Origin: Macrostomum hystrix
Lineage: Eukaryota; Animalia; Platyhelminthes
Assembly: GCA_950097015.1 (NCBI GenBank)
Contig: CATNEN010000038.1
Coordinates: 22,506,001-22,570,000 of the forward strand
Reading direction: 5' to 3'
DNA length: 64,000 bases
Shown: positions 14,339 through 64,000 of the stretch, piece after piece
How the letters are laid out: each line of letters begins with the position of its first letter
Numbering within the stretch: the stretch's first letter is position 1
The notes under the pieces: generated by a model
The model's database searches: none
What the model was told of the DNA's origin: nothing
The model's input: only the letters and a program-made list of their open reading frames with translations
Made by a program: the position numbers and the translations under genes

Positions 14339-16231
<1,893 letters not shown>

Positions 16232-26300: not shown

Positions 26301-29300
26301 CCTGTGAGCTCGAGCCCTGCTCAAATGCAACGCAGCCGAGTCTAGCGGCTGCACGGATGCTCCGACCAGGTCTGACTGCTGCGTCAGCTGAGTTGGCAAG
26401 GAGCGCTCCAGAGTTGGCGGCGATGAAGTTGCTGCGAAGCCCAGGTGACCAACGCGATTGAAGTGTGACAGCGACCTTGCAGTGATTGCACAACAACTCA
26501 ATTACTGATTTCTATACGGGTTTTCCCGCAAGCTTTTCTAAAAATAGACACAACGCCACCCCACGAGGAGAATCCGGCTCTGTTGCTATTTTAAGAAACT
26601 CTACTTCTTGGGAAACCCCAAGAGATTCTCACCGACGCCTTTGCAAGATCTTTGCCGGTCGCAGACTTTGTACAGGCCTGACCACTGACAGGCTCTGATT
26701 GGCTAGCGTTGGCTGTTGCTGCTGTTGCTGCTGCTTGTACTTCTGCTTTGACAACGCCTCATCCGAATCGGAGCCATTAGTGACGTCCGGATTAGTTCCT
26801 GAGCTGGCAAAATCGTCCTGTCCAGCTTCGTCCTGATTGGCCAGCAGGTGCTGCAGGCGGTAGCGAATCTCTTCAAGGGAGGCCAGGCTGGCATTCGCTT
26901 CCGATTGGATCTCGTCAGCGTGCTGGTTTCCATGTAATCACAGGTATGATGGTCAGCAACAAAAAGACTTCTCATGTAGTTGATTTGGCAAGGGGAGAGA
27001 GATGTGATATCGGAGAAATGAGAAATGGAGAAATGAGACAGGGGAGAAATAAGACAGGGGAGAAATGAGGCAGGGGAGAAATGAGGCAGGGGAGAAAAAA
27101 GACAGGGAGAAATGAGACAGGGGAGAAATGAGACAGGGGAGAAATGAGACAGGGGAGAAATGAGACAGGGGAGAAATGGGACAGGGGAGAAATGAGACAG
27201 GGGAGAAATGAGACAGGGGAGAAATGAGGCAGGGGAGAAATAAGGCAGGGGAGAAATAAGACAGGGGAGAGATGAGACGAGAGCGTTGAGACTTCAGACA
27301 TGCATTTGTATATTGATTTGTGCGCAAGCTAAACTACTTAAAGTAGGAACAAATGTGGTGTGTAACTGAATTGAAAGTCTAAAATGTTTGAAAATGCAAT
27401 CAAGAGGGCTCATTGTTTTAAATGTGACAGAGCATTGTAATGCAATGCAAGAAATTTGCTTTCGATATGCATACTACAATTTTTCGAGGAAATGGACAAC
27501 AGCAACGTGCGTTATAATGAACAACATCTATTTATGAATATTGCTTTAGGTTTTTACGTCATCTTTCGATCGCAGAGACCGCATGTTGACGATCCACGTT
27601 TTGGAGATCTGTGTTTTTCATTTAGATTTAACGAGTGACAAGTTTTTGAAGAAATGTAACTCGTTTTTGTTATATCGATATATCGCCTAACCTATGAACA
27701 CAAACCCATCCATTCATTTCATTTTCCGCGACGTAATTTTAAATTGCACAACAAGCCCCCAAGCCTTCTCTCCGCGGCTGCGCCTCAAATGAATGTGACC
27801 TCGTCGCGGAATCGAGCTCAGGGACCTTGTTGCGAAAGGCGAATGCGTTAGACCACTCTGCCCCTTGTCTTAATAAAATAACAAGGTAATTTTGTAGCTT
27901 AAATCATGCATATTTAGGTGTAAAAATAGTTTTAATCTTCATTTACTAAGGCGACTACAAAGTAAGATAAGACACAGGTATGTATCATAAGCTGGACTAT
28001 GCTAACAGACAAAAAATGAATCCTTAAATTTACCAGGAACAATGGCTGTCGCCAGGTGGGCATTATTAACTGCCTCTTTAGCCTGAAGTTATCCTTTAAT
28101 AAAGAAGATCAGATTTGATTGTAAATAAATCATTTGAGTGCACAAATATCGTTCTAAAAACGAGGTTTTTAAAACGGCTTTGAAAGTCAGCTCCCAAGGG
28201 GCGGAAAATGTTGATCCACACGGTGGAATTTCATGAAAATCGGTCATTCGGTTTGGGAATTTGAAATACTCCCCGGGGTATTTCCATAGGGGAAAAGATA
28301 GCGTGGTCTTCCTACTGTTAAGCATTTATCAAAATTGAGTGGGACTGGAACAAATAGCTCACCGAGTAGATGATGTCCCTGCCGCTCTCCTGATTAAGTC
28401 GCGAGTGCAGACTGAAGATCTTCTGCGGGCCATAAAACAAACAGGGTTGAAACTAAATTAAATTAACTGTCGGTGATAGGTCGCGACACTGAACTGTCTT
28501 CGAGGTCGAACACGAAATCTAACAGATTTGGCAGTCTATCACATATAGTAAAACAAATTTTAATTACGTTTCTTAATAGAGGCCTTAAATGAAATAGGTA
28601 AAACTAAATTCACAAAATATTAACACCTTATTCGCTCGCTCCAGTAGTCGCTCCTCACTGAAGCACGGTATGCCATTGTTTGTGCGGCCCTCGAATTTGC
28701 TGACAAACATCGGATACTGCTTGATCTTGACCCGACCGCTGGCGCTACCTCCGTTGTCGTCGGCGGAGCAGGTAGGCAGGCCAGGTGATGACTTAGCGCC
28801 GGCAGTCTAAGTAAAGAAAAAAATCGATATTTTATCATGTGTTTAGCGAATGAACGAACTCACTGATTGGTTAAAAAATATTGCGGGCGTTCATCAAGGA
28901 TAAATCTGTTACTATTTTTAGATTTATCAGTTGACCATAGTTTTTAGACTAACAAATCAGATTGGCTGACAGTATCGACCAGGTTCATCAATGTACACCT
29001 GTTACTATTTTTAGATTTATCAGTTGACCATAGTTTTTAGACTAACAAATCAGATTGGCTGACAGTATCGACCAGGTTCATCAATGTACATCTGTTTCTA
29101 TTTTTAGATTTATCAGTTGACCATAGTTTTTAGACTAACAAATCAGATTGGCTGACAGTATCGACCAGGTTCATCAATGTACATCTGTTTCTATTTTTAG
29201 ATCTACTACAGGCCACTGATAAAACCTTGTACATATTTAAGTCAAGTTTAGGAAACGTACATTGATGCTTAGTCTGATGTACATTTTAATGACTTCTTTA

Positions 29301-32300
29301 CCTTTTGCTGATCCAATTGAGCTTGGTAGTCAGTACCGTTAGCTTCATTTTCACCTGTCTGCAATGGAAAAAGTTTAACTACGCGTTAGGTGTGAAGATT
29401 TTCGTTTAAAGAATGCTAGCGGCTTACTACTATATAGGTAGAAAGCGATGCTAATATGATCGCATGTAATAATCAGGGTCGCAGTAGAGAAGAGGGTAAA
29501 ATGGTATTTACAAGGAAGGTATAAGCATGAACTGAAGACAGAATTATTTGACGGTCAATGTAGAAAAGTACACAAAGCTGCTTATTAAGCTATTAATATA
29601 CGGTTTAGGCTGCTATTGTAAACACCGATAATAAACATAAGTGTTTGGCATCGATGCAACAAAATGGTTATAATAATTGTAGTGGCTGTATTTTTAACCT
29701 GCTGGTGAATGCGACGCTTGTCAGCGAATAAACTTGAAGCCACTTTGAGTGGCTGGCCTAGTGACAGTCTGCGCGTGTTGCTGCTGCTGCTGTTGCTGAT
29801 CCCGATGCTACCAATCTTACCACTCTGTTGTGCAGGGGCTTTGCAGCACTGCGTTGATGGCTTTACAATGGTAAAGTTTCGCGTTGATACAATTTAACTA
29901 GTACAAGCTTGTTTAACAAAAATTTGGGCGAGTGAATAGCGAATATAAGGCAGAGGACATGGCGAGGCAAAGCCAAGGGTAGAGCGAGAAGATAACTAGG
30001 GGATGGCGAGGGCATGGCGAGGGAAGGGCGAGGGAAGGGCGAGGGTATAGTGGGAAAGGACTGCGGGTATGGCGAGGGAAGGGCGAGGGTAGGGCGAGGG
30101 TATGGCGAGGGTATGGCGAGGCAAAAGCGAGGGTGGGGCGAGAAAATTGCGAGTAAATTGCGAGGCGATGGCGAGCGCGAAATAGGGCATCCGTGGAAGC
30201 GAGGCTACGGCGAGACTAAGGCGAGATTCTCAGAGAATGATTTGATATCTTAACAAATATCTTAATAAATGTAAAGCGTGTTCAGGAATAAAAGTGCGGG
30301 TTAAACCAGGTCACAGTAGCTTGGGCTAGGCACCCAATGATAGGACAATGCGAATGTCGAAGGTTGAGACGGTTTACAACTATCGGACTTCTAGAAAAAA
30401 TTTCTTTAATTAACCTTGTCGACTACTGACAGTAGCTGAATCTGCCGCAGTCTCACCTCTGGATCTTTGGTCTCGCGTTTCTTGACGCCGCTCAAATCCT
30501 TCTCTTTCTTCTTCGATTTTCGCTTTCGCCTCTTGACCGGCGGCCCCTGCGGCGGCTGCGGCAGCTCCGGCTCCGACTCTGAGTCTGAGTCGCTTGAGCT
30601 GGAGTGTCAGGTGAGCAGGCGATTGTTGAAACAAAAATTCCCAAACTCACACAGTCTCATCTCTCCCCTATCTCATCTCTACCGTGTCTCACCTCTACCG
30701 TGTCTCATCTCTCCCCTGTCTCATCTCTACCGTGTCTCATCTCTCCCCTGTCTCATCTCTACCGTGTCTCATCTCTCTTGAGCTAAAAAGACTCACTCAG
30801 ATTCATCCACATCAGTTATGTTTAGCTGGCGAATGACGCTGCTGCAGTCCTCCATTGAGCTGAGAGCCAGCTGCTCCATCAGCCTGCCAGGGTTCAGTCG
30901 GCCAAGGCTGCACCGATTGGCGTCAGTGTTCAGCGTCGACTTGCCACCACTGATGGCAGTTCGCAGGGTGTCCAGCAGGACAGTTCGCTCTCGTCTACTC
31001 TCCATGACAGAGCCTTCAATGTCAATTTTTCTTATGAAATTAGGGCGAAGGCGAGTCGAGGGCGAGGATGATTCGAGGACGAAGATGAGGCGAGGGCGAA
31101 AATGAGGCGAGGGCGAAAGTAAGGCGACGGTGAATATATGGCGAGGGCGAGGATGAGGCGACAACGAAGATAATTCAAAAGCGATGACTATAGTTTTATA
31201 AAATAAATTTTCAAACCTTGATCGCCAGGGCCCTTCAAGTCTTCAGCTGTCAGCGTGGTTGCGTCACGACCGACGCCAGCGTCTCGCAGAAGGCCCATCA
31301 CCAGGTCCAGTGTCATTTCGACCACGATGCCGCGCTGCCGGCTTGGGTCCTCCTTCACCTGCTTGTACTGCCACACCGCACTAGCCAGTGAGTGGCCCAT
31401 GGACTCGAGGTCTGCGGTGTTGAAGTGCCTGGAGTCCGAGCTGTTACAGACATGAGGGTTCGCTTGTGAGTGATCACTGACAATGTGTCCATAATTTATT
31501 GTTGAATTCACACAAAGCACTCACACAGAAGCACTCGTCCCGCTGAAGGTCGCTTCCATTGTGAAGGAATTCTCAATGCCAAACTGGCGCCACATCACCA
31601 CGCGCCCAGTAGCCTCTTTGCACTTTCTGATGTTGAACTTGCAGCCCCTATAGGAGAACAGCTGGGGCGAGCAGCGGGACACTAGCCACGGAAAAAGGCG
31701 CTCGTTTAGGAAGCCCTCCGGATTGACGCGAAGTCGAACAGAGTTTACCTGCGGATTGTAAGGGGTGTAGAAGGGCGTTAGGTGGTTGTCATGGCGTGAG
31801 GTGGTTGTCATGGCGTGAGGTGGTTGTCATGGCGTGAGGTGGTTGTCATGGTGTGAGGTGGTTGTCATGGCGGGAGGTGGTTGTCATGGCGTGATGTGGT
31901 TGTCATGGCGTGAGGTGGTTGTCATGGCGTGATGTGGTTGTCATGGCGGGAGGTCATCCAAAAATTGGGCTTGTGATGATATAATCATCAATGAGTGAAG
32001 TAAGGAATAAGTCCAGTAGTGATGTAATTTGAGATAGACTTCACCTGCTCGACATCCACTCCCCGGTATTGGGAATCGCAGCCATACATGAAGACGTTCG
32101 GCTTTCGCGAGTGGCCGTGCAAATCGCAGTAGAGAAGCACCGGCCGCTCCTGCAGCAGGCGCTCCAGCATTCGCTTTGTGTAGAACACTGTCGGGAAAGC
32201 TTCTGGCCTTGGGTGCCGATAATTTCGATTCAAATCGCGCGCCGCTAGAGAGGTGCGATAATTGCCAACTATCACACCGTCTGGATTCAGCATCGGTACC

Positions 32301-35300
32301 AGCTGCAGGTTAATGTTTTTTATGAGCCAGCTTAGCGTAGAGAAAAATCAACTAGATGGGCATTTGACAACACCACTCTTATTCACCAATCTCACTTTCA
32401 TTGGTCAGCTTCACTCTCATTGGTCAGGCTCGCTCTCATTTGTCAGTCTCACTCTCATTGGTCAGTCTCACTCTCATTGGTCAGTCTCACTCCCATTGGT
32501 CAGCTTCACTCTCATTGGTCAGTCTCACTCCCATTGGTCAGCTTCACTCTCATTGGTCAGTCTCACTCCCATTGGTCAGTCTCAATCTCATTGGTCAGCC
32601 TCGTGGTCGTGGTTTACCTCTAGTTGATCAGTCCCACCCTCATTGGTCAGTTTTCTCTAATTAGTCAGTCTCACTCTCTCACTCTAAAAGGTCAGCTTCG
32701 CTATCATTAGTCAGCCTCACTTAGTCATTTAAATGACTCCCATTGGTCAGTAATTTTTATTGGCCACTTGCAATTATTCAGCAGTTCCAATTGGTGAGCC
32801 AGCTCAGCCAATCAGCGAAGAGAAGCGAAATACTAAATACAAAACCAAACAGCGCGAAAAGTGCAACCTTGAACAAAAACTGTCTTCGAAGGGCGCAGGC
32901 GACCTGACTGTCACCAGTCAGAAAGTCGATGAGACCCTTCATCATCCAGCTGCTATTGGCCTCGCCCGGATGTACGCGTGCCGTGACAACCACGCCAGGT
33001 TTGCTGGCAGCGTCTACTGAGTGGTCTGAATCAGGATAAAGTCAAAGTCAAGGTAAGATAAGTGAAAAAGTGCGAAATTTCTGATCGAGAGCATAAGCTG
33101 CTAGTTGAAACTGCATGATCTCAGGATACTCACCATCATAATCAGTGATGGTGAGTAGGAAGCATGAGTTCCCAGCTCGCGTCTGGCACAGGACCTCCTC
33201 TTTGACGTAGCGCCTCCTTGATTGGTCAGTCTGCAGGGCTGCGAGATCGGCTCGCAGGTCCGTATAGGTGTACGGATAGCTATGGGCCAGGTAGCAGCTG
33301 TCCTCGGCATGTGTGAACTCCTGGACATTCAGGATGCGAAACGCTACTTCAGTTACGAGTAGATATTTCAGAGACTAGATTACACCAGATACAGGTGGGA
33401 ACTGTGTCAGACAGTTAAGCACAGGTGAGGATAATGTCAGCCACTTTAGCACAGGTGAGGATAATGTCAGCCACTTTAGCACAGGTGAGGATAATGTCAG
33501 CCACTTTAGCACAGGTGAGGATAATGTCAGCCACTTTAGCACAGGTGAGGATAATGTCAGCCACTTTAGCACAGGTGAGGATAATGTCTGACACTTTAGC
33601 ACAGGTGAGGATAATGTCTGACACTTTAGCACAGGTGAGGATAATGTCTGACACTTTAGCACAGGTGAGGATAATGTCAGACACTTTAGCACAGGTGAGG
33701 ATAATATCATACACAGCAACACAGGTGTCACAGCTCACCATCTGCCACTCCAGCTGGTAGTAGACCATCTCCCTGTGCAGCAGCGTCGACTGCAGCCTGG
33801 TGACATTCCTGGAGTATCGAATGTGGTGACCGGTTCGATGCCAGCCGAGATTGTTGCTGGCCGCAGATTTCTCCGAGTACAACAGCGGCTTCATGCCCTC
33901 ACCGTACAGACTGGTCGGCTTGAGCAGGTTCACAATGACAAACTTGTAAACTATTCTTGGTTGGGCATTCTGCACCTTGAAGTAGAACCACTGGGTGTGA
34001 CGCTTGGTGTACAGGTCGGTTCTAAGCACTAGCTCGTATTCGAACATTCCTCTGTGGAGAGTTAAACATTGTTAAATTCGTGGGCTGGTTGAGCATTGCT
34101 GAGCATGGCTGAGCATTGTTGAGCATGGCTGAGCAAGGCTGATCGTGGTTGAGCATAGTTGAGCATAGCTGATCATGACTGAGTATGGATGAGAACAGGT
34201 GAGCACAGCAGAGCATGGCTGAGCATAGTTGAGCATAGTTGAGCATAATTGAGCATGGCTGAGCATGGATGATCATGAATGAACATTGGTAAGCACAGCA
34301 GAGCAGGGCTAGGGCATGGCCTAACAGAGCCAGATTCGAATTGGACTCACACTCGTCGAACTTGTCGCAAATTTCCTGACTCGAATCGTGACTCGAAAGT
34401 TAGCGACGTGCACAGGCCTTCCGGCACTGGCGCAGGCGTGTAGTGCCTCGGACAGCGCTCGCTATCGTACACTATTTGAGTACCACGCCATCGACCCGTG
34501 TATTGAGTTGCTTGAGTGTCTACTGTTAGTAGCGGCTCGCAACCTGGCAAGATTAATTTGTGCCAAATATTATATTCAGTAGATTGTTGTCAATGACTAC
34601 GAATTCCTGTCAAGTCTAGTTAAACGCCTCACAATGCATTTAGGGTTTTACTACTAAATCAATATAGGAAAGATTGCGCCACAATACATTCTGTGCGTGA
34701 GTGTGTGCGCAAGTTCAAGCAAGGATATTGTGCACCACTTGCTCCCGTTAAACATCCCCTGAGCCAGACATTGTGGAGCTGGATAATTGTTGGGCACTGA
34801 GGATGAAGCTTGGTTCACAGAAGATTTTTACTTGTCAAACTCTCAACTAGCATCATATGCTCCAACATGATAGCTCAGCTGAGCACATCTGCTAAGTCCT
34901 TGGACTGTAGTCAAACACACCCACTAAGATTTTAACCCGATGCAACATTTGCCTCTAGCACCAAGGTCCCCGAGCTCGATTCCGCGGCGAGGCCACATTC
35001 ATTTGAGGCGCAGCCGCGGAGAGAAGGCTTTGGGGGCTTGTCGTGAAATTTACGCCCTTGAAGGCCAGCCTACATACAGCACAGTGAGAGTGTACACTGC
35101 CTGACAATGAGAAAGTCAAGGTAGATGTACACACCTGTGTGAGAGTATGCTTTGGGATTATTAAAAGGGTTTAATTACCTCTCTATAATAATAGATAGAC
35201 TATTTGAAATGGAGGCAAAGAAATACACATAACTTCATTGTCAGGTTAATTAAACTAATTATTTGTTTTACTCGGTAGCAAAACACTTTGTAATGAAATC

Positions 35301-38300
35301 CATTTAGTAACACGCATAAGTATTAATTGCTTCACAGGCTGATCTGTACACAGGCTTTGGAAGTGCAGAGCAATAAGTCAATTACTCATAATAATGACAG
35401 TTTGATAAGTAAAATCTAATTATGTTGCTTTTAGAAGTGAATTCCTTTAGAAAATAAATTGCAAAAGACTTGACTCTGAGCCAGCCACTATACTCAAGAG
35501 AGTCTGTAACCAAGCAGTCTTTAGGAAAAATTGTTTTAAAAAATTAAAACAGACAGTCAGACGCAATCTAATATAGACAGTGTTGTGTGAAACAGACCTT
35601 TGCACTGTCTGTGAGAAGTCTCATTGTGCTCATGCTCATGCTCACAGTGCCTCTGTCTGCAATCTAAAGGTAAAGAACGCCTTAGAAAAACTTTTCGAGT
35701 CTTTCATGGTCTCAAATTTATTTCATATTCTTCCAAGCCACTGCTCTGTTTTGCCGGCGTTTCCGCTGACACAATGACAGTTTTGAAAAAAAACTCTTTA
35801 GAAAGACAATTTAGGAATAATGACCTATTTACGAGCAGAGAAGAATGCAATTAGCTTTATTTGTTGGAATTTCTACTGGTAACTCTTTTAGAGATTAATG
35901 CACCATCATATAGGTTTCGATATTTTATTAAGGTTACAAATTGCGTTATTTTAAACAGCGATTTCTGTTATGTCTAACGGAACTTGATTACCCACTAAAC
36001 TTAATCAATCTGCTTTCCAAAGCAGATTTTATCCTAAAAGTGCACGTGGTTCAGTCTAGCAAAGTCAAGTCAAGTTACCCGGCCTTTGCCGACGACGAAA
36101 ACTATTTCCAGCGGGTCCCGTTGATAAGGACGCCATTCCGCGGACTGCGCACAACGTGGTGTTTGCTTGTTTTAGTTTGGTTTCCTAGGAAACTAGTATT
36201 TGATTGGCTTGTACAGGGAAGACTGACATCTTTGTAAACTCGTAGGCATGAGAATAAGAGGATTATGAAACTTAGTTTCAATTCTGTTTAACGTGCTCCA
36301 CCTGTCTAACACTGCCAATCTAAACAAATTTTAGAATATCACAAGAATATTTTAATGAAAAAAGTTAAAAACATTTATATTGGGTGGCATCTATTCTTTG
36401 ATCTTTAAATATCATACCATTAAAACTCTCTACTTACCTACTTAAAGTAGCTCAAAGTAAAAAAAATTATATATATATATTTCAAAATTTAGTACGCGAT
36501 TGAATAGCAGCGAAATAAGCAGGCGACACTCACCTGGATTTCGCAACGGCAGCAGCAGCGGCTCGTGCTCCGGCGATGGCAGACGTCGATGCTGCGGAGT
36601 CGGATGACAGGGCCCGAAATCGCGTGGCCAGAACGGGCCGTGTTGGTCTCGCAGCAGGCCGTACTGGTCCCGGTAGCGTCCATCTGACTGGCGCGTCATC
36701 ACCGAGCCGTCGGGGAGGCGGCCGGCAACGGAAACGCCGACGCCCACGCGGCTGACGCCAACGCCGGCGCAGGCCTGACGAAAGCCGTCTCTGGTGAAGT
36801 TGCTGAATAGCAACAGGCGCTCCTCAGCTGTCAGATCGCCAAACTGGCGCATGGCTTCCAGACCTTGACGAAGCTGGGCAGACGGTGCAGAACTAGAAAC
36901 CACCTGCTGCTGCTGCTGCTGCTGCTGTGACGTCCAGGACGACGACAATGTCGTGGTTGTCAGCTGGCGTGTTGCTGATATTAAAGGAAGAGGTTCGAAC
37001 TGATCGACAAAAGCGTCGGCATCGTCGGCCTCCTGAAGCTGTCGCCCACAGTCGGCCTCTTCGTCAGCTCCACCATAATTGGCAGCTCCGACTCGGAATC
37101 GGGCGACCCGTCGATTGACTACAAACGGAGACTGCGATGCGACTGCGGCCGATGACTGCGCGATCTCTCGATCAATGACGTCATCGTTCTGATACGGATA
37201 GGCCTCGCTTTCAACGCCGGTTATTGTTCTCCGGAGAAGGCGCTGATCGCCGTAGAATCGCCCAGCTGCCCCCATCATCGCTGCCGACGTGGCCGATGAG
37301 GCCGCTGCGTTGCGCAGCTGCGTCAGCTCCCGCTCCCTCTGGGCGGCAGCTTTCAGTCGGGCCAGTTCGCGACTCCGGCGCTGCCGCTCCGCTGGCGGCG
37401 TGTCGAGGGCTTCGCGGACTCGCCGGCTTATCTCGGCTTCAAGTTCTCGACGAAGCTGCTCTCGCCATTCTGGGTTGCCTGCCACCGCCCCATGAAGCAG
37501 TTAATCATCAATAATAATTTGATCCAAATACTTTACTAATAACTATTAAAAGTTCAATCTTTACTGGTTATTTTTATTCGAGACATTTTAGGCTCAGGAA
37601 TTTTCCAAGAGAAACGTATTTAGGGATTTTCCATAACCTTTCAGGCTTCGGAATTTTCCACGATATGTCAGGTCTGGGAATTTTCCATAACCTTTCAGGC
37701 TTTGGAATTTTCCACGATATGTCAGGTTTGGGAATTTTCCATAACCTTTCAGGCTTCGGAATTTTCCACGATATGTCAGGCTTCGGAATTTTCCATAACC
37801 ATTCAGGCTTCGGAATTTCCCGCGACATTTCAGGCTTGGGGATTTTCCATAACCATTTAGGCTTGGGAATTTCCTATGACCTTTCTAGCTTCGGAATTCG
37901 ACATGAAATTTTAGGCCTTTGAATTTTCCATGATAGTTAATGTAAGGAAATTTACATGATTTTTTTGCTTTATTTAGACTTCTTATGACCTTCTATTGAC
38001 CATGGAAGGGCCTAAAAATTCATGCTAAACATATTGTAAAATTAAAGAAAAGGTCAGTTAGGCAAGATGAAGTGACTGGTTGAAATCGATTCCTCCCTAA
38101 AAAGTTGCATAAATAATGGTTTCTGAGGGAAGTGTTCAAAGAGAACTGATGGAAAATAGAGGTGGAGAAGTGTGGGCAGATCAATCGTGCAGCCAGCTGT
38201 ACTACTCAAGCTCTGCCTACTCACCTGTCATGTCAATCTCCTGCTGTTTCGCCCGCTGTAGCAGTTCAATCTCTTCGTGCTGCTGTTTCATTCGCAGTTC

Positions 38301-38420
38301 TCGATCCTCGCTAACAGACAGCACCGATTGGTGCCGGCGAAATCTCTGGAGTTGCTGCTGCTGCTGTTGCTGCTGCTGCTGAGTCGCTGATGAGTCCTGT
38401 TTATCGAGTGTTGTTTCCAT
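26301..38420 (-). CDS. AGBL2: Cytosolic carboxypeptidase 2/3-like tubulin deglutamylase (M14D). Core exons 38420-38225, 37478-36534, 34543-34351, 34051-33739, 33320-33134, 33025-32868, 32302-32045, 31748-31525, 31440-31217, 31013-30797, ~30598-30415; further low-complexity exons to ~26301 and possibly ~24760
   Basis: FESRFESGNL, YELVLRTDLYTKRHTQWFYF, YLAHSYPYTY, ARVHPGE (Zn), PMLNPDGVIVGNYR, DLNRNY, DLHGHS, SFTMEATF; core splice phases consistent. Confidence 0.9.
27012..27278. repeat. 16-bp minisatellite (GAGAAATGAGACAGGG)n, intronic
   Basis: About 16 units seen directly. Confidence 0.95.
27742..27862 (-). mobile_element. SINE family A 5' fragment
   Basis: Matches the reverse complement of 11405-11530. 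Confidence 0.72.
28906..29203. repeat. 93-bp tandem repeat, ~3.2 copies, intronic
   Basis: CTGTT[AT]CTATTTTTAGAT at 28906, 28999, 29092 and 29185. Confidence 0.95.
29958..30225. repeat. Degenerate 11-bp GGCGAGGGTAT minisatellite, intronic
   Basis: Repeated GGCGAGGG; a related array lies at 31043-31162. Confidence 0.85.
30653..30778. repeat. 16-bp minisatellite (TGTCTCATCTCTCCCC / TGTCTCATCTCTACCG), intronic
   Basis: About 8 units; near reverse complement of the 27012 array unit. Confidence 0.9.
31780..31953. repeat. 19-bp minisatellite (GGTGGTTGTCATGGCGTGA) x9, intronic
   Basis: Seen directly. Confidence 0.95.
32385..32752. repeat. 19-bp minisatellite (CATTGGTCAGTCTCACTCT), intronic
   Basis: About 12 good units plus degenerate ones. 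Confidence 0.92.
33418..33725. repeat. 30-bp minisatellite (ACAGGTGAGGATAATGTCAGCCACTTTAGC) x10, intronic
   Basis: Seen directly; begins ~13 nt inside the donor at 33738. Confidence 0.96.
34088..34320. repeat. 10-bp minisatellite (GAGCATGGCT / GAGCATAGTT), intronic
   Basis: Fills most of intron 34052-34350. Confidence 0.9.
34948..35142 (+). mobile_element. SINE family A copy
   Basis: GCACCAAGGTCCCCGAGCTCGATTCCGCGGCGAGGCCACATTCATTTG. Confidence 0.78.
37588..37935. repeat. 27-bp minisatellite with a 54-bp dimeric higher-order unit, intronic
   Basis: Alternating GGAATTTTCCATAACCTTTCAGGCTT and GGAATTTTCCACGATATGTCAGG. Confidence 0.9.
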
Positions 38421-39159
38421 TTTCCCTAATAACTATTGACTTCGAGAAAATTATGGACAATAGTTATTCCGCCTGTAGCAATAGGTTAGTTAGCGGCATT
38501 AGTCATCGCTTGTATGACGTCCTAGGTTCGATTCTGTTCAGCTGGCAAGTGTAACCTAAAAAATTAAATTTGTTTGTACTCGTAAGTTGATCTTGTGTAT
38601 AGAAAGGCAGCTTTAAAAAGTTGAACTCACGAGTAATACGAATTTGCTTTACAAATTAGAACCTACAATAAAATTAGCAAAGTCAGCTGACTAACTGGGT
38701 TGCTATGGCCTCAACAGGACAGGAAGTTGAGTGTTGAAGTAGTTTCAAAGCGCGGAGTCTGCACCCTGATGGTTAAAGGAGTGTGGACTGAGACAAACTT
38801 CCTTGACAACAACCAGTTAGTTATAGCAGTTGTGAGAGGAGAGACTGGCCGCTGATAGAACAGCTTTAGTGAGATTTTGAAAGCATCGACTCAGAAAAAT
38901 ACACCATTGGATAGCTTGAAGAGGCTAGAGCAGAAAATCTGATAGGAAACTGGGTCCGTTCTATAGTGCCAGCGTATCTCTGTTTAATTACAGAAATTTA
39001 CACTGCCGGGATGGGACCTTGTATAGTCAAACATATCTTGCTAACGCTTTTATGGTACGAACTGTAAATGCTCACAGAGATAAGCAGAGTAAGAGGCACT
39101 AGAGTAGAGAGGAAGTCAAGAGAAGGGAAGGGAAACAGGAGAGAAAAGAAGGACATATA

Positions 39160-54900: not shown

Positions 54901-56617
54901 AAACAAGATGAATTTTTTGTTGGCAAGTAAAATTCATAAGCAGATGAGTTGGCCAACTTGGTATTTACTAGAAAAAGAATAAAATTAAACATCCTGCTAC
55001 TACTCTTATAGCCAACTACAATTACAAAAGAGCTAGGACATTTCTGTTTATGGTAATTATACCATGCCAAAAACATGTCAACTATTTCTATGGTAACAGT
55101 ACACTGACAAAAAGGCTTGCTTATCAGCATGGAAGAATAGACAGATAGGCTCTTGCATTTTCTACACAAGGACTACTAGGGTAATGTATCATCAACCGAA
55201 CAGTGTATCTTCAAAACCGAACAAGAATTTTGACTCCTTCCTTGGTCTCATGCAAGACAGAAACAAGCTATTGTTTTTCACAGAACAACTAATTTGAAAG
55301 TTGAAGAAATTATCTACAAGCTGAGGCATGATGTGCAATGAAGCATTAAGAGGAAAAAAAGATATTGATGTTTCAGTAGAAATTTTTATTGCAAAAGCAT
55401 ACTTTTTAACATTTTTTCAGTATGTACTTTAGACGAAGATTGTATGCGGTTGCTTGCCAATTAAATGACCATAAATGTAGTTATTTATAGAGCATGAAAA
55501 ATGCTTTCAAATGACATAATTCATGATAGTTCACTCCTTAAAAATAAGATTAAACCACTCACTCAAATAGTAAAACCAAACATCAAATTCCCTGTTTGGT
55601 TTGAAGATACATGAAAATCATTGTTCGGTTTTAGATAAAAAGCAGGAATAACATTTTTTCTATTTGTCAAAATAGCAAAAGCAGATACTTTTTAGAAAGA
55701 TGTAACTGTTTTCTATAACTTGGCTTTTGATTTATCATCATATCTTAAATAGAAAATCTGTAGCTTAGGTTTGAAGTTAAAAAAATACACATTCTTGTTT
55801 GGTTGATGATACATTACCCTAGCAGATTACTCTTTTCCTAATGGTCCTTTCTTTGTTTTCTAGTAGATAAGGACATATCTATAAAGGCCAAGAAAAAGAA
55901 AAACAATGTAATATTTCAAAAGTACACATTAACAATAGTAAAATATATTTAGAAGAAAACATTATAAATACTAAATAGGCCAAACCATGTAAAAAGCTAA
56001 ATAGGTCAACATGGATTGCAAAGGCCAAGAACTTCAAGAAGCTAGCTAAAAGTTACTCTTGAAGTTGTAAATGAATAGTTAAAATATTTACCATTTTTGC
56101 CAACAATCTCTGCCACATGATCTGATGAAGGTACTTGAATGCGCTCAGTATTAGTCATATATCTTTTCTCTTGGCTAGATTCTAGTGGGTCTGGCATAAC
56201 ACCTTGGAGAATGTCAAGTGACTGCTTTTTAAGAGATATTTTCTGTTGGAGAGATTCAAAATCAGTGGAAGCGTACTGAATTGGCTTAGATCCACCCATT
56301 GGCATCATAAGGTTATAATTGTTCATCTGAGGGTACTGAGTACCCCCAATCTGGTTAAAAGCAAAATTCATTTCTGAAGCAGCTGGGTGGTAATTGCTGC
56401 TTCGTTGATACATGGCAGAGTATAGTGACGCGCCCTCACTGAATCCATTCTCACTATCGTACTTTCCATTTTCCGAGAATAACGTTCCCTGACCGTTAAC
56501 ATCCACAGGAAACATGGAGGATGGCGAGACTTGACTAGCCTGACTTTGGGGTAAAAAGTTGTCAAAGTCGATGTTTGCAGGTTGGAAGTCGTTAGCAAAT
56601 GCACTACCACTAGTCAT
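51926..56617 (-). CDS. mex-3: MEX-3-like tandem KH-domain RNA-binding protein; exons 56617-56092, 53712-53603, 53443-52933, 52479-51926; 566 aa; no RING domain
   Basis: TERIQVPSSDHVAEIVGKNG...KTPSRDEPPIFEVTG...SEHF and KH2 VGLIVGANGQTIRWVQQLSDTHIATP; exon lengths sum to 1701 nt in frame. Confidence 0.88.
52592..52703 (-). mobile_element. SINE family A 5' fragment in a mex-3 intron
   Basis: GACAAGCCCCC.GCCTTCTC..CGCGGCTGCGCC...TTGGTGCGAGA...CCGCTCTGC. Confidence 0.7.
55179..55819 (-). mobile_element. TA-flanked MITE, copy 3 (inverted), in mex-3 intron 1
   Basis: Reverse complement of copy 2; same TIRs and TA flanks; carries the empty hAT target GTCTAAAG once. Confidence 0.92.
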
Positions 56618-57911
56618 GTAGTCAGAGTGGGCAAGCGGCTTTTTATGACCAGCGTCCGCGGATAGCATTATTAGCAAAATTGAAATGAAATAAAACTAAT
56701 GAGATGACAACTACAAGCACAGTCGCATGCTGCCTAGACATTTGGACCAAAAGAAAAAAGTGTATTAGCTTACAATAAATGCGCAAAGCAGTTTATACAT
56801 AAGCACTTTAACAAAAATGAAGCCTGCGTTTTAGTTTACTCGTAAATTAAGCTATTGCAAAACTTTTTAAAAATAAAAACAGCTACATAAATACACATGT
56901 TTTATCTTATGTTGTATAACTGTTTTTGTAATCTGTTTCTACTACAATGAAAACTAAATTCGAATTATCTTTAACTTTTTCTTTTTTTTCAAGCAAAAAA
57001 TTTATGGCGGAACGCTTTTCGCACATGTAAATGAAGATTAAAGAATCGTGGTTTCAAAGGTGACTCTGCAAAAAAGCAATTGTTATATCTGAAACTTTTT
57101 GAAGGTCTTTGTAGCAAAGCTTTTTTCTTACGAGTTAACAAAAAAGTTAAAGCATTGAACTCGCCAGTTTCTATCTTTTAAGATAGAATTAATATGCTGT
57201 ACTCTTTATATTAGACTCATGAGCATAGTCTTATGCTTTGAATAGGAAAACGATCAGTAAAGTAATACAACAGCTACCATTGTATATTTTAAAATATTTT
57301 TCTGCTAGATATATATGTATTTGTATATGTAGTAGATGTAGTGTAGTAACGCGGCAGAAAAGCTTTTACTACTAGTTACTAGTTATAAACTCTTAATTCT
57401 GGTGTAAGAACTATGGCAAGTGAGAAAATGCCCCCTTTTGCAAGCTACAAAAAATTGCGCCTTTACATTTAATTTGTTTCATGGCAAGTTTTCGTGTTTG
57501 ATGCAGGATTTGCTTAAAATGAAATTTTTATTCTTTTTTGAAATAGTAATTTAATAGATTGATAATTTTAATACAACTTTACATAATTGCAAAAAAGGTT
57601 GAGCTAGTTCGTACATAGCGCATCTTCTTAAGAGAGCTTTTAAAACTATAAACTAATTTTTTTAACGATTTTAGTGGAACAGACTTCAGGGTTTGCGGAT
57701 AGAATGATATATTTCAATTGTGTTACGTTTGTCTATTTTAAAATGATAAGTATCTGGTTACTTTTTTCATGCACTAGCAAACATTACTTTTAATACTGAT
57801 CGTGCGTTACAAATATTCCATTTTTAGTCGTCAATCAACTCTTACGAAAGATAAGTGATTAAAAAATCGGCTTGATTTGCATTTTCTATCAAAGAGTCTG
57901 CAAAGAACATT

Positions 57912-57925: not shown

Positions 57926-60900
57926 GGTTAGCAAGGCTGCCGCGGCAGCGGCAGGCGAAAAGTCGGTAACCTACGAAGTGCAAGGCCAAAAGTACGTCCT
58001 ACCGCCGCCATCGCTCACCAAGCCTTTAAACTCGGGCGCAGAGTCCAGCGGCCTGCTGGACACCTGGCCGGCGCACGCCTCTTGCCGCGCCGTCCCTGAC
58101 AGCCAAGTCCTACTCACCAAGGACAGCCGACTTGTTGTCATTGACGACGAGTCCGCCGGCCGGCCTAATTTACTGCCGAAGCCGAAGTTCCTGGAACAAT
58201 TAGAAGGCTATCTGAAGCGCGAATTGAAGTCGCACAATGTCACGGAGGTAGCCGCCAGCACCATTCGGCTGCAGATTCATCGAGAAGTGTTTGAGTACCT
58301 GATCGAGGCGTTCAAGACTTATAAGCCGCTCTTGGCTGTTATCAAACGCGAGTACGAAATGATGATCGCGCACCTAAGGGATGAGATTCGCCGACTGGAA
58401 CCAATGAAGGAGATGCTGTGGACCCTCAGCCAGGAGTGCGATCAGAAAATCATGGCCATCAGGGCTGAGGAGAAGGACGGTAGGTGTGCATTTGATTTTT
58501 TTACAAACTGGGCGGCCAGAAAGCGGCTTTTTGCGCGTTTACCTGTGGGACTATTAAGTCCCCTGAGGTTTATTACACATTATTCAGGCCGCATTCATTT
58601 CGGAGCTGGTTCTGCAATTTACGCTCTTTAGGCACATAGCTTTAAGTCACAGACTTAAACCCAAATCTAACCTAGGGGTCAGTAAAACAGGAGAGAATTG
58701 CGTCCTCGCTGGCAACTGTCACCTGATGATGTGCCTTGTGTCCCAAAAAATACACAGAGATGCGCCACCTCCGCTCGCTAAACCTGGGACTGCGCGAAAA
58801 AATTGATCGCATGCGCGAACAGCAGCGAGACCTTGAGCAGCAGGTTGAGACGCTAAAACTCGAACTAGCCGAAATGCAACAGCGCTACAGGGACGAGGCC
58901 GACAGTCGCAAGCTTCTGGTTGCGGATATGAACGAACTCCGCTCACAGCAGGAGGACCTCAGCATCTTCAAGAAGGCTGCCGACTCGGAGGACAGCGGCG
59001 AGGATCCTGTGCAGCTGCGCATCGGACTCAACCAGGTCTGCATGGACTCACCTTCACATGGATATCTCACAGCCTCTCTGTCTCTCTGTCTCTTTCTCTC
59101 TGTCTCTCTGTCTCTCTGTCTCTCTGTCTCTCTGTCTCTCTGTCTCTCTGTCTCTCTGTCTCTCTGTCTCTCTGTCTCTCTGTCTCTCTGTCTCTCTGTC
59201 TCTCTGTCTCTCTGTCTCTCTGTCTCTCTGTCTCTCTGTCTCTCTGTCTCTCTGTCTCTCTGTCTCTCTGTCTCTCTGTCTCTCTGTCTCTCTGTCTCTC
59301 TTTATCTCTGTCTCTCTGTCTCTCTGTCTTTCTGTCTCTCTTTCTCTCTGTCTCGCTTCCTCTCTGTCTCGCTTCCTCTCTGCCTCTCTTCCTCTCTGTC
59401 TCTCTGTCTCTCTGCCTCTCTGCCTCTCTGTCTCTCTGTCTCTCTGTCTCTCTGTCTCTCTGCCTCTCTGTCTCTCTGTCTCTCTGTCTTTCTGTCTCTC
59501 TGTCTTTCTGTCTCTCTGTCTCTCTGTCTCTCTGTCTCTCTTTCTCTCTGTCTCGCTTCCTCTCTGTCTCTCTGCCTATCTGTCTCTCTGTCTCTCTTTC
59601 TCTCTGTCTCGCTTCCTCTCTGCCTCTCTTCCTCTCTGTCTCTCTACCTCTCTGTCTCTCTGTCTCTCTTTCTCTCTGTCTCTCTGTTTCTGTCTCTCTT
59701 TCTCTCTGTCTCTCTGCCTCTCTGTCTCTCTGTCTCTCTGCCTCTCTGTCTCTCTGTCTCTCTGTCTCTGTCTCTCTTTCTCTCTGTCTCTCTTTCTCTC
59801 TGTCTCGCTTCCTCACTGCCTCTCTTCCTCTCTGTCTCTCTGTCTCTCTGCCTCTCTGTCTCTCTGTCTCTCTGCCTCTCTGTCTCTCTGCCTCTCTGTC
59901 TCTCTGTCTCTCTGTCCCTGTCTCTCACCCTGCTAGTCTCATTCAATCCTTACAGGCCAAGAAGTCCCAGGCCGAGCTGATAGATCGCATCACTCGCATG
60001 GAGGCTGACTACTCGGATGTGGTTCCCAGGCGTCAGTTTGAGACCCTCTCGGCTCAGTTCACCACTATGGAGGCCGAGTATGGCAACTACAAACGGGATA
60101 CGGACAAGCTCATAGATGAGCACAGGTGCGCTGATTACTTTTTATTCATTTTTTTCTCTAGAGTTTTTCCAAAAGATACTTTGCAATTTATATTTCTTCA
60201 ATACTTTAATACTTAATTTCAATACTTGATTTTTATTCTAGCATCAACTGTAAAAAAGCATTACTGCACTCAATACAGATGTTACATGGAACACTTAAAT
60301 TCTCATTCTCCTCTCCTCGCCTCTCCTGACATTTGTTACTCTCGTCTCCTCTTCTCTCCGCTCCTCTCCTTCTCCTTTCTCTCCGCCCTTTCCTCTCCTC
60401 TCGTCTCCTCTTCTCTCCGCTCCTCTCCTTCTCCTTTCTCTCCGCCCTTTCCTCTCCTCTCCTCTCCTTTCCTCTCCTCTCCTCTCCTCTCCTCTCCTCT
60501 CCTCTCCTCTCCTCTCCTCTCCTCTCCTCTCCTCTCCTCTCCTCTCCTCTCCTCTCCTCTCCTCTCCTCTCCTCTCCTCTCCTCTCCTCTCCTCTCCTCT
60601 CCTCTCCTCTCCTCTCCTATCCTGTCCTCTTCTCACCTCTGGGACTGGGAATCAGCACTCAGTGAGATCTCCTAGTGAGACTAGTTTCGCCAAATGTTTG
60701 GGTGCAAAAACCGATTTCGCTGACAACAGGCGTAAAGGCAGCTACAGGAAGTTTATCGACAGTCACACCCAGACAGACTGTGAGCCAATGATCTCGGCCA
60801 TAGACGAATTCGACGCTGGCAATGAGCGAGAAGCTAATGAACAACGGATGCAGTTGCGGCGCGGTAGTCTGCAGTCAGTGAAATTCGACCTTTCTGTAAA

Positions 60901-62924
60901 AACTAGTTATGTTTCAAAAGAGGTTCACACAAATATTTCTGCGCAGTCTGTGTATTATAGCTAGCGAATTCATTCACACGTTTTAAAATGGTTCGTTTTC
61001 CAAAGCTGTCTGTTGTTAATCAGTGTTTTTTATTCACCATAGTAAACTTGTTTGTAAATCTAGGTATGTAGAAAGTCCATGTTGCAATCACGCGTTTGTT
61101 TGTATCAGTTGGTCTCGATAAAAAACTGTTTATTTAATTTACTTTTTTTCTATACGATAACTTTCAAGGGCACTGCAGGACCTCTACGAGCAGGTGCTGA
61201 AACAACGTGATCAGTACTATACTGAAGCTGAGCAGCTCAAGGGCACAGCAACGCCAAGGTAATTAGACTCAGTGGGATTAGACTCAGTGAGATTAGACTC
61301 AGTGAGATTAGACTCAATGAGATTAGACTCAGTGAGATTAGACTCAGTGGGATTAGACACTGTGAGATTAGACTCAATGAGATTAGACTCAGTGAGATTA
61401 GACTCAATGAGATTAGACTCAGTGAGATTAGACTCAGTGAGATTAGACTCAATGAGATTAGACTCAGTGAGATTAGACTCAGTGGGATTAGACACTGTGA
61501 GATTAGACTCAATGAGATTAGACTCAGTGAGATTAGACTCAATGAGATTAGACTCAGTGAGATTAGACTCAGTGAGATTAGACTCAATGAGATTAGACTC
61601 AGTGAGATTAGACTCAGTGGGATTAGACACTGTGAGATTAGACTCAATGAGATTAGACTCAGTGAGATTAGACTCAATGAGATTAGACTCAGTGAGATTA
61701 GACTCAATGAGATTAGACTCAGTGAGATTAGACTCAGTGAGATTAGACTCAATGAGATTAGACTCGGTGAGATTAGATTCAGTGAGATTAGACTCAATGA
61801 GATTAGACTCAGTGAGATTAGACTCAGTGAGATTAGACTCAATGAGATTAGACTCAGTGAGATTAGACTCAGTGGGATTAGACACTGTGAGATTAGACTC
61901 AATGAGATTAGACTCAGTGAGATTAGACTCAATGAGATTAGACTCAGTGAGATTAGACTCAGTGAGATTAGACTCAATGAGATTAGACTCAGTGAGATTA
62001 GACTCAGTGGGATTAGACACTGTGAGATTAGACTCAATGAGATTAGACTCAGTGAGATTAGACTCAATGAGATTAGACTCAGTGAGATTAGACTCAGTGA
62101 GATTAGACTCAATGAGATTAGACTCAGTGAGATTAGACTCAGTGGGATTAGACACTGTGAGATTAGACTCAATGAGATTAGACTCAGTGAGATTAGACTC
62201 AATGAGATTAGACTCAGTGAGATTAGACTCAATGAGATTAGACTCAGTGAGATTAGACTCAGTGAGATTAGACTCAATGAGATTAGACTCGGTGAGATTA
62301 GATTCAGTGAGATTAGACTCAATGAGATTAGACTCAGTGAGATTAGACTCAATGAGATTAGATTCAGTGAGATTAGACTCAGTGAGATTAGACTCAGTGA
62401 GATTAGACTCAATGAGATTAGACTCAGTGAGATTAGACTCAGTGGGATTAGACACTGTGAGATTAGACTCAATGAGATTAGACTCAGTGAGATTAGACTC
62501 AATGAGATTAGACTCAGTGAGATTAGACTCAATGAGATTAGACTCAGTGAGATTAGACTCAGTGAGATTAGACTCAATGAGATTAGACTCAATGAGATTA
62601 GACTCGGTGAGATTAGATTCAGTGAGATTAGACTCAATGAGATTAGATTCAGTGAGATTAGACTCAATGAGATTAGACTCAGTGAGAGATTAGACACATG
62701 AGATCAGTCTCATGGATTCATAGCACTAGATCGGAATCTACTTATCCCATCACAGGCCGGAGTGGGAGCGCTGCGGTGAGTATATTTCAGGCGGCGCCGA
62801 CCGTTGGAAGGAGCTGAGTCAGGGCAAACGCTCGGACGAGCTGGTAGACATCATTCTGCAGGAGATGTCCGGCCTCACAACTGGCGAGGCTCAGATGCTT
62901 GAAGGGCTTGGCTACGATGACAAG
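57918..62924 (+). CDS. TSNAXIP1: Translin-associated factor X-interacting protein 1, 3'-incomplete; exons 57918-58479, 58758-59035, 59956-60125, 61169-61258, 62756-62924
   Basis: [66 protein letters not shown]; splice phases consistent. Confidence 0.88.
59073..59925. repeat. Polypyrimidine (TCTCTG/TCTCTCTG)n tract filling TSNAXIP1 intron 2
   Basis: Seen directly. Confidence 0.97.
60308..60620. repeat. (CTCTC)n microsatellite in TSNAXIP1 intron 3
   Basis: Seen directly. Confidence 0.96.
61259..62695. repeat. 15-bp satellite (GAGATTAGACTCA[G/A]T), ~95 units with higher-order variants, filling TSNAXIP1 intron 4
   Basis: Seen directly; starts at the GT donor. Confidence 0.98.
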
Positions 62925-63006
62925 GTTGGTGATGAGTCATAGAGTCATTCAATTTTTGTGATGGTACTTCTAAATTAATCAGCTTGAGCATGCTGTCAAT
63001 TTTGTG

Positions 63007-64000
63007 TAGGATTCGGTTTGAGTAGGATTCAGTTTGAGTAGGATTCAGTTTGAGTAGGATTCAGTTTGAGTAGGATTCAGTTTGAGTAGGATTCAGTTTG
63101 AGTAGGATTCAGTTTGAGTAGGATTCAGTTTGAGTAGGATTCAGTTTGAGTAGGATTCAGTTTGAGTAGGATTCAGTTTGAGTAGGATTCAGTTTGAGTA
63201 GGATTCAGTTTGAGTAGGATTCAGTTTGAGTAGGATTCAGTTTGAGTAGGATTCAGTTTGAGTAGGATTCAGTTTGAGTAGGATTCAGTTTGAGTAGGAT
63301 TCAGTTTGAGTAGGATTCAGTTTGAGTAGGATTCAGTTTGAGTAGGATTCAGTTTGAGTAGGATTCAGTTTGAGTAGGATTCAGTTTGAGTAGGATTCAG
63401 TTTGAGTAGGATTCAGTTTGAGTAGGATTCAGTTTGAGTAGGATTCAGTTTGAGTAGGATTCAGTTTGAGTAGGATTCAGTTTGAGTAGGATTCAGTTTG
63501 AGTAGGATTCAGTTTGAGTAGGATTCAGTTTGAGTAGGATTCAGTTTGAGTAGGATTCAGTTTGAGTAGGATTCAGTTTGAGTAGGATTCAGTTTGAGTA
63601 GGATTCAGTTTGAGTAGGATTCGGTTTGAGTAGGATTCAGTTTGAGTAGGATTCAGTTTGAGTAGGATTCAGTTTGAGTAGGATTCGGTTTGAGTAGGAT
63701 TCGGTTTGAGTAGGATTCAGTTTGAGTAGGATTCAGTTTGAGTAGGATTCAGTTTGAGTAGGATTCAGTTTGAGTAGGATTCGGTTTGAGTAGGATTCAG
63801 TTTGAGTAGGATTCAGTTTGAGTAGGATTCAGTTTGAGTAGGATTCAGTTTGAGTAGGATTCAGTTTGAGTAGGATTCAGTTTGAGTAGGATTCAGTTTG
63901 AGTAGGATTCAGTTTGAGTAGGATTCAGTTTGAGTAGGATTCAGTTTGAGTAGGATTCAGTTTGAGTAGGATTCAGTTTGAGTAGGATTCAGTTTGAGTA
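63007..64000. repeat. Highly homogeneous 16-bp satellite (GTAGGATTCAGTTTGA)n in TSNAXIP1 intron 5, running off the window
   Basis: More than 60 units with only an A/G variant. Confidence 0.98.

What the first reader, a model, noticed from the sequence alone, without database searches (positions are those of the whole stretch)
27000..64000. One intron, one private minisatellite: arrays fill introns from splice site to splice site
Seen: at least 10 AGBL2/3 introns, 4 consecutive TSNAXIP1 introns, the single TMEM33 intron and the last PKD1-like intron each carry a tandem array, mostly unrelated to one another (units of 5, 6/8, 10, 11, 15, 16, 19, 21, 27, 30, 34 and 93 bp). Arrays usually start within ~0-40 nt of the donor and/or stop ~20-60 nt before the acceptor. 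The mex-3 introns and long intergenic stretches (47.4-51.9 kb, 56.7-57.9 kb) have none. Inference: a local, transcription- or splicing-coupled amplification mechanism that expands intron sequence in situ, possibly biased to ciliary/germline genes. It loosely recalls satellite-filled introns of Drosophila Y fertility genes (established), but at small scale and with a new unit per intron.
Basis: partly seen in the sequence, partly recalled or inferred. Interest (0 to 1): 0.8.

Follow-up and report, generated by a model that had tools for sequence, protein, structure and literature searches.

The report
Flatworm introns swollen by local minisatellites
In this stretch of a Macrostomum flatworm genome about half of the introns carry a tandem repeat, most of those tested being rare elsewhere in the genome, which likely grew in place inside once-short introns much like the 'sequence stuttering' of bird genes, and within its intron a repeat sits no closer to the splice sites than chance placement gives.

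Summary
The arrays are real. 17 of 19 tandem arrays lie in introns, and 17 of 37 modelled introns carry one (AGBL2 11 of 17, TSNAXIP1 4 of 5, TMEM33 1 of 1, PKD1-like 1 of 9, mex-3-like 0 of 3). The DNA is from a Macrostomum flatworm, and RNA contigs confirm much of the AGBL2/TMEM33 model.

(1) Once the array is subtracted, its position in its own intron is uniform (P about 0.4), and only 4 of 16 reach within 60 nt of both ends; 'splice site to splice site' is geometry of a small host intron. (2) Not all are private or intronic: two share a 16-mer family that is hugely abundant genome-wide, and one lies in the TMEM33 3' UTR.

What remains: two-copy seeds are as common between genes as in introns, yet big arrays sit near exons, and short introns carry them as often as long ones. 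Best reading: local DNA-level expansion, with growth or survival favoured beside exons. It works like avian sequence stuttering but lacks exon-edge copies. The scan noted a similar pattern in a shark gene.

The parts
7178..7310 (+). 21-bp array, 6.3 copies, in last PKD1-like intron 7159-7398 (19 nt from donor, 88 from acceptor)
   Evidence: intron from open-frame exon chain, no RNA laid
24286..40507 (-). AGBL2/CCP2-like gene, 17 modelled introns, 11 with arrays
27012..27278 (-). 16-bp array, 16.8 copies, intron 26923-28362; genome-wide 16-mer family
28889..29202 (-). 93-bp array, 3.4 copies, intron 28807-29301; low copy
29953..30225 (-). decayed 11/22-bp array in the middle of intron 29359-30456 (TRF core to 30153); copy number unresolved
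30654..30776 (-). 16-bp array, 7.7 copies, intron 30599-30796; same family as 27012, opposite orientation
31042..31161 (-). 17-bp array, 7.1 copies, intron 31014-31216; low copy (part tested)
31774..31954 (-). 19-bp array, 9.5 copies, intron 31749-32044; low copy
32390..32602 (-). 19-bp array, 11.2 copies, with decayed halo to about 32800, intron 32303-32867
33405..33714 (-). 30-bp array, 10.3 copies, intron 33321-33738; low copy
34086..34277 (-). 10-bp array, 19 copies, halo to 34330, intron 34052-34350
37626..37933 (-). 27/54-bp array, intron 37479-38224; low copy
39160..40079 (-). 15-bp array, 61 copies, in AGBL2 5' UTR intron 38556-40157
   Evidence: (spliced loose end)
41904..42262 (-). 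22-bp array, 16.5 copies, in the TMEM33 3' UTR, not an intron
   Evidence: X3 contig 42163-42588 (depth 56.7) overlaps the spliced TMEM33 contig (55.5)
43187..43905 (-). 34-bp array, 21 copies, in TMEM33 intron 43054-43911 (6 nt from donor, 133 from acceptor)
47200..47293 (.). 41-bp repeat, 2.3 copies; the only intergenic hit with TRF score >=100
51926..56668 (-). mex-3-like KH-domain gene, 3 introns without arrays (control)
59073..59932 (+). 6/8-bp CT-rich array filling TSNAXIP1 intron 59036-59955
60307..60640 (+). 5-bp CT-rich array in TSNAXIP1 intron 60126-61168 (181 and 528 nt from the ends)
61262..62712 (+). 15-bp array, about 96 copies, filling TSNAXIP1 intron 61259-62755; nested 9-unit block and an exact 525-nt duplicate (61292, 61817)
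63001..64000 (+). 16-bp array, 62 or more copies, TSNAXIP1 intron from 62925, cut by the window end

Best explanation
These are minisatellites that likely grew in place inside ordinary short introns by DNA-level copying, and that likely grow or survive better beside exons than in long introns or between genes. Step 1 (shown): two-copy seeds occur at the same rate in introns and intergenic DNA. Step 2 (shown for one array, inferred for the rest): growth goes by block duplication, i.e. unequal exchange or repair template switching. Step 3 (shown): array minus its length leaves an intron of ordinary short size, so nearness to both splice sites is geometric. Step 4 (inferred): the exon bias comes from recombination or repair tracts that begin in conserved exons, or from exons shielding neighbouring arrays from large deletions; the window cannot separate these two. 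Step 5 (inferred): splicing acts only as a filter that tolerates arrays as long as the splice signals stay intact. A minority of arrays (2 of 11 tested) come from a genome-wide 16-mer family rather than from local sequence.
For: Seeds: 9 in 14,046 intron bases vs 17 in 21,408 intergenic bases, both about 3.6 times shuffled; small TRF hits 4:9 vs large arrays 17:1, Fisher P=3e-4. Residual plus one unit for short hosts: median 122.5 nt (n=10) vs 128 nt for array-free short introns (n=13), P=0.44. Position in own intron uniform. Against all intron bases pooled, arrays are exon-proximal (mean 72 nt, P=7.5e-5; AGBL2 only with recognised interspersed repeats removed, P=0.0025); 10 of 21 short and 6 of 15 long introns carry one. 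Exact 525-nt, 35-unit duplicate in 61262-62712 vs at most 9 units in shuffles. Longer arrays are more homogeneous (rho 0.56, P=0.013, n=19). 8 of 11 arrays laid look low-copy. Array introns are spliced out in RNA contigs of two studies. M. lignano has 15% simple and tandem repeats (PMC5730564 passages).
Against: One 64-kb window and 7 genes; arrays cluster by gene (P=0.004) and by region (21.5% of 27-64 kb vs 0.5% of 1-27 kb), so per-base P values overstate independence; per-segment test not significant. No orthologous intron was available to show a single ancestral unit. Edge decay, expected for homogenising arrays, was not significant (8 of 13, P=0.41). The short-intron excess is partly circular if arrays erased host sequence or long introns gained length later. 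Units resemble each other more than shuffles do (10 of 171 pairs at p<0.01), so some may share ancestry. 8 of 19 arrays were not tested for copy number. The block duplicate could be an assembly error; no reads were laid there.
Confidence: 0.55

Rival explanations
1. Transcription-coupled growth: seeds arise everywhere, but transcription (R-loops, transcription-coupled repair, replication conflicts) drives their expansion, so big arrays form only in transcribed DNA.
For: All 18 arrays with 3 or more copies lie in modelled transcription units, one in a 3' UTR; seeds are unbiased but large arrays are not; a weak tendency to CT-rich sense strands (12 vs 5, P=0.14); the 16-mer bin has an RNA/DNA depth ratio of 0.012-0.038 vs 0.003-0.007 for SINE bins (depth is a poor measure).
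Against: Long introns are transcribed too, yet hold 84% of non-array intron bases and only 6 of 16 arrays (P=4e-5); the mex-3-like introns (3 kb) have none; strand bias not significant.
Confidence: 0.2
2. Regional effect: the 27-64 kb part lies in a chromosomal domain (subtelomeric or high-recombination) where minisatellites flourish, and the intron link is partly chance clustering in a few genes.
For: 21.5% vs 0.5% array cover in the two parts of the window; gene heterogeneity P=0.004; per-segment Fisher P=0.37 or 0.066; avian stuttering is tied to chromosome type (PMC12954441).
Against: Inside 27-64 kb, 10 kb of intergenic DNA holds one 2.3-copy repeat against 16 intronic arrays (P=2.4e-4 per base); exon proximity holds within AGBL2 alone.
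Confidence: 0.1
3. Dispersed families: units are seeded by mobile elements or by excised and reinserted repeat circles, and only look private within this window.
For: The 16-mer at 27012 and 30654 is one family in opposite orientations with a crude 6e4 array-equivalents of depth in X1; variant contigs at 146-923 depth at the 31774 and 41904 arrays hint at relatives elsewhere; mild unit kinship; 8 arrays untested.
Against: Seven arrays show 0-9.5 array-equivalents of excess depth and the exact 22-mer depth (519 vs single copy 65-84) matches its 7.4 copies in the window; the two 16-mer arrays share no flank; no array overlaps the interspersed repeats found by self-BLAST.
Confidence: 0.1
4. Splicing-coupled amplification: the spliceosome or an intron RNA/cDNA intermediate templates expansion anchored at splice sites.
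For: Arrays are exon-proximal in the pooled test and occur per intron rather than per base; two start 3 and 6 nt from a donor.
Against: Uniform position in own intron; no splice-junction copies (own junction match 5.2 vs other junctions 5.5 nt; best proximal exon hit 24.7 bits vs 27.4-36.5 in shuffles); a 3' UTR array; hierarchical block duplicate typical of DNA exchange.
Confidence: 0.05

Closest known systems
Sequence stuttering on avian dot chromosomes (Hron et al. 2026, PMC12954441; read: abstract, passages incl. Discussion, section 7 part 1 of 2)
   Same: Introns each hold one or more locally expanded motifs, confined between exons, coding sequence intact, detected by TRF; proposed mechanisms are repair or meiotic exchange.
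   Different: Here an invertebrate; units shorter (5-93 bp); no exon fragments copied; SINE-like repeats present in the same introns; intron flanks about 39% GC; intergenic DNA spared (in birds it is also affected); length polymorphism only hinted.
Amphioxus 'mirage' minisatellites (Adh3, BflGb6, BflGb9; PMC3087553, read: passages and section 16)
   Same: Intronic minisatellites of 10-160 bp next to exons that do not disturb splicing.
   Different: Mirages span an exon-intron boundary; none of the 17 intronic arrays here matches its own junction better than other junctions.
Intron-enriched tandem repeats in Daphnia pulex (PMC3152781, abstract) and green algae (PMC3887541, passages)
   Same: Highest tandem-repeat density in introns; excess toward intron ends reported for algae; strand bias reported for Daphnia.
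   Different: The algal intron motifs are mainly GT/AC microsatellites; here 10-93-bp units dominate and cover a median 60% of the host intron, and the end bias disappears after residual-length correction.
Satellite-filled giant introns of Drosophila Y fertility genes kl-3, kl-5 (PMC6508621, abstract)
   Same: Transcribed introns made largely of tandem repeats.
   Different: Megabase scale, simple satellites, dedicated RNA-binding programme; here introns are 0.2-1.6 kb with mostly different units and no sign of a special programme.

Membership tests
Sequence stuttering (avian) | Introns heavily covered by locally expanded repeats, isolated between exons | tested here: met
   17 of 37 introns; median cover 0.60 in the 16 complete array introns, 0.41 over the 24 introns of 27-64 kb; none of the 16 complete ones crosses into an exon. 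A permissive extension of the 63001 array reached 19 nt into its exon, within the range of null extensions.
Sequence stuttering (avian) | Extensive length variation within the species | tested here: inconclusive
   Only contigs available. X3 shows 24-fold depth on the 22-mer cycle vs 7.8 copies in the window, a hint of a longer allele; RNA depth is unreliable.
Sequence stuttering (avian) | Occasional copying of exon-edge fragments | tested here: not met
   43 exons vs 37 introns: best proximal hit 24.7 bits, shuffled maxima 27.4-36.5. In birds only 3.4% of dot introns show this, so 37 introns give little power.
Sequence stuttering (avian) | Very GC-rich setting devoid of interspersed repeats | tested here: not met
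   Coding GC 0.53-0.58, GC3 0.55-0.71, same in genes with and without arrays; intron flanks 0.39 vs 0.40; SINE-like and MITE-like copies inside introns.
Sequence stuttering (avian) | Confinement to a chromosome class | not testable with these tools
   No whole genome held.
Mirage minisatellites | Unit spans an exon-intron boundary | tested here: not met
   Own-junction longest match 5.2 nt vs 5.5 nt for other junctions, 17 arrays.
Dispersed (element-borne) minisatellite family | Same unit at many loci | tested here: met
Dispersed (element-borne) minisatellite family | Shared element flanks around the array | tested here: not met
   Flank alignment scores 13 and 10 between the two 16-mer arrays, on 25-150 nt of flank; no shared flank in masked self-BLAST.
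Intron gigantism (Y-loop type) | Megabase introns of simple satellite | tested here: not met
   Complete array introns are 198-1602 nt.

The most novel reading that the evidence does not exclude
Macrostomum runs an exon-anchored minisatellite engine: every intron, whatever its length, has about an even chance of growing its own array, because recombination or repair tracts that start in conserved exons run into the next 100-200 bases of intron and amplify whatever seed lies there. It would be an invertebrate, moderate-GC counterpart of avian stuttering, in a transgenic laboratory animal where the mechanism can be tested.
Probability: 0.25. Interest if true: 0.65.

Novelty: new variant of a known kind. 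Interest (0 to 1): 0.4.

Why it matters
Macrostomum genomes are known to be repeat-rich, but the 2023 assembly paper says the nature of the repeats was left for later (PMC10468722), and my searches found no paper placing them in introns. If the pattern holds genome-wide it explains where much of this repeat load sits and why mean intron size differs among species, extends stuttering-like intron growth beyond birds and GC-extreme genes, and offers a clean test of birth versus growth versus retention of minisatellites. It is not evidence for a new splicing-linked mechanism.

Tried and rejected
Whole-genome tests: no genome held. Splice-site anchoring: rejected by residual-length test with two array definitions. 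Exon or junction copying: rejected. Acceptor exclusion zone: TRF edges stay 23 nt or more from acceptors (P=0.029 computed post hoc for 24 nt), but permissive edges come within 9 nt, so not claimed. Sense-strand pyrimidine bias: 12 vs 5, P=0.14. Edge decay: P=0.41. GC of flanks: no difference (P=0.68; computed before three intron ends were corrected). G-quadruplex motifs: 3 in the window, 2 of them in the 29953 array. Unit-similarity test used a doubled 15-mer and was redone; with 3000 shuffles no pair could reach the Bonferroni limit. The identity-length correlation had a duplicated row and was redone. An apparent 42-nt intron in AGBL2 exon 1 from the spliced aligner was dropped as an artefact. 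Rfam: no match. No RNA holder listed by record; runs X2 and X3 were read as RNA because their contigs are spliced. The first M. lignano genome paper (PNAS 2015) is not held; nothing from it is used. PMC7013459 had no relevant passage. Supplements of PMC5730564 (Table 4) and PMC10468722 (Table 2d) were not opened and may bear on repeat classes.
Full report
Source and gene models. The window is from a Macrostomum flatworm: best hits of an AGBL exon, a TSNAXIP1 exon and a KH-domain exon are M. lignano proteins at 89%, 97% and 97% identity. The species was not identified and no whole genome is held. Pfam supports a PKD1-like gene, two fibrinogen-C genes, TMEM33, a KH gene and TSNAXIP1. A spliced alignment to P0001 gave the AGBL2/CCP2 introns; the others were set by GT-AG ends and open frames. 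Runs X2 and X3 are not on record as RNA, but their contigs are spliced. The unlaid parts of three contigs equal my exon sums to the base (1914, 1409 and 173 nt). Loose ends show the TMEM33 intron and a 5' UTR intron of AGBL2 at 38556-40157. PKD1-like, mex-3-like, TSNAXIP1 and fibrinogen introns rest on homology or open frame only. Possible introns at 23.2-24.3 kb were left out of all counts.

Observation. TRF at score 100 or more gives 19 merged arrays. 17 are intronic, one (41904-42262) is in the TMEM33 3' UTR, since an X3 contig of depth 56.7 runs from inside it into the spliced contig of depth 55.5, and one (47200-47293) is a 2.3-copy intergenic repeat. 17 of 37 introns carry an array: AGBL2 11 of 17, TSNAXIP1 4 of 5, TMEM33 1 of 1, PKD1-like 1 of 9, mex-3-like 0 of 3, fibrinogen genes 0 of 2. 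Leaving out the UTR array, 17 of 18 fall in the 42% of non-array non-coding bases that are intronic (P=3.6e-6; 16 of 17 within 27-64 kb, P=2.4e-4). These values overstate the case: arrays cluster by gene (P=0.004) and region (21.5% vs 0.5% cover), and counting segments gives P=0.37, or 0.066 without the 2.3-copy repeat.

Splice-site placement. For the 16 complete array introns (the one cut by the window end was dropped), both ends lie within 60 nt of a splice site in 4 (6 with permissive edges). Scaled to the non-array length of the same intron, the nearest distance averages 0.48 against 0.50 expected (P=0.40; 0.38 with permissive edges). Non-array length plus one unit has a median of 122.5 nt in 10 short hosts against 128 nt in 13 array-free short introns (P=0.44). 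So an array that grows in a 60-170-nt intron must end near both splice sites. Units do not copy junctions.

What survives. Pooled over all intron bases, arrays are nearer exons than chance: mean 72 nt, P=7.5e-5; P=0.0025 for AGBL2 alone with recognised interspersed repeats removed. Short introns hold 16% of non-array intron bases but 10 of 16 arrays; 10 of 21 short and 6 of 15 long introns have one. This is partly circular if arrays erased host sequence or if long introns grew later. Two-copy seeds are as frequent between genes (17 in 21.4 kb) as in introns (9 in 14.0 kb), both about 3.6 times shuffled, and small TRF hits split 4:9 against 17:1 for large arrays (P=3e-4). The bias therefore acts on growth or survival, not on birth.

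Private or shared. 11 of 19 arrays were laid against DNA run X1 (single copy about 80). The 16-mers at 27012 and 30654 are one family in opposite orientation (84% over 122 nt), with bin depth up to 920,407, a crude 6e4 array-equivalents that is inflated by overlapping contigs; they share no flank. Seven arrays show 0-9.5 equivalents of excess, and the exact 22-mer depth matches its copies in the window. One is unresolved because its bin holds a CTG microsatellite. Other pairs share at most 11 exact bases; 10 of 171 unit pairs reach p<0.01, more than the 2 expected, largely among CT-rich units.

Mechanism. The 15-mer array in TSNAXIP1 has a recurring 9-unit block and an exact 35-unit, 525-nt duplicate, against at most 9 units in shuffles; this is block duplication at the DNA level unless misassembled. 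Longer arrays are more homogeneous (rho 0.56, P=0.013). Edge decay and strand bias were not significant. I commit at 0.55 to local expansion by unequal exchange or repair template switching, with growth or retention favoured beside exons. That human minisatellites mutate by meiotic exchange next to hotspots is recalled, not from a call. Transcription-coupled growth (0.2), a regional effect (0.1), dispersed families (0.1) and splicing coupling (0.05) are the rivals.

Comparison. It works like avian sequence stuttering (PMC12954441; abstract, passages and section 7 part 1 read) but fails two tested features (exon fragments; GC-extreme, element-free setting), and length variation is only hinted (X3 depth ratio 24 vs 7.8 copies). 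I do not file it as a member. It is not a mirage repeat (PMC3087553, section 16). Intron-biased tandem repeats are known in Daphnia (PMC3152781, abstract), green algae (PMC3887541, passages) and near alternative exons in C. elegans (PMC4039745, abstract). The Drosophila Y genes differ in scale and kind (PMC6508621, abstract). M. lignano has 15% simple and tandem repeats (PMC5730564, passages); this window has 12.7%. PMC10468722 leaves the nature of the repeats open (passages). Searches found no paper on intronic minisatellites in Macrostomum; the library lacks most subscription papers. Earlier scan notes describe a like pattern in a shark gene and junction-copy arrays in a brachiopod.

Verdict. 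A real intron-biased minisatellite load, explained mostly by in-place growth in short introns of a repeat-rich genome. The splicing-coupled reading is not supported. The exon-proximal growth or retention bias is worth a genome-wide test. Interest 0.4.

Noticed in passing
window 8398-9503 and 19282-20460 (-): Two recent fibrinogen-C (FReD) paralogues, 92-96% identical; the first has an in-frame stop at residue 37 of 303, the second is open.
   Followed up: partly
window 46234-46880, 55174-55822, 14337-14719 + 15890-16236: About 650-bp MITE-like repeat with terminal inverted repeats, three copies at 96%; the third is split by a nested insertion.
   Followed up: partly
window 14730-15890: hAT-like insertion with inverted ends, an 8-bp target duplication and a zf-BED remnant below Pfam's cut-off; the hAT label is recalled from those features.
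   Followed up: partly
window 11287-11531, 25765-25930, 27737-27862, 34945-35150, 52593-52703: SINE-like repeat with tRNA-like boxes (label recalled), several copies in introns; very high depth in X1; no Rfam match.
   Followed up: partly
window 17056-18145: Two-copy tandem duplication with a 528-bp period, 92% identical, intergenic.
   Followed up: no
window 21451-23202 (-): 583-codon open frame without Pfam match, covered by an X2 contig (21125-23225) that carries 100 further letters; separate gene or long AGBL2 isoform.
   Followed up: no
window 29331-30486: X2 and X3 contigs read through the AGBL2 donor at 30456 into the intron with the 11/22-bp array, as a retained intron would.
   Followed up: partly
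window 42554-42595: About 35-40-bp fragment of a very high-copy repeat inside the TMEM33 3' UTR.
   Followed up: no
window 34002-34186: A contig of run X9 (organism C) crosses from the exon into the 10-bp array with 4 other letters and 2 gaps, while neighbouring exon pieces differ by 1 letter each: the array is shared and changes faster.
   Followed up: no
P0001 and P0029: The M. lignano matches to AGBL2 and TSNAXIP1 both list a longest contig of 541,198 bases, suggesting conserved linkage.
   Followed up: no
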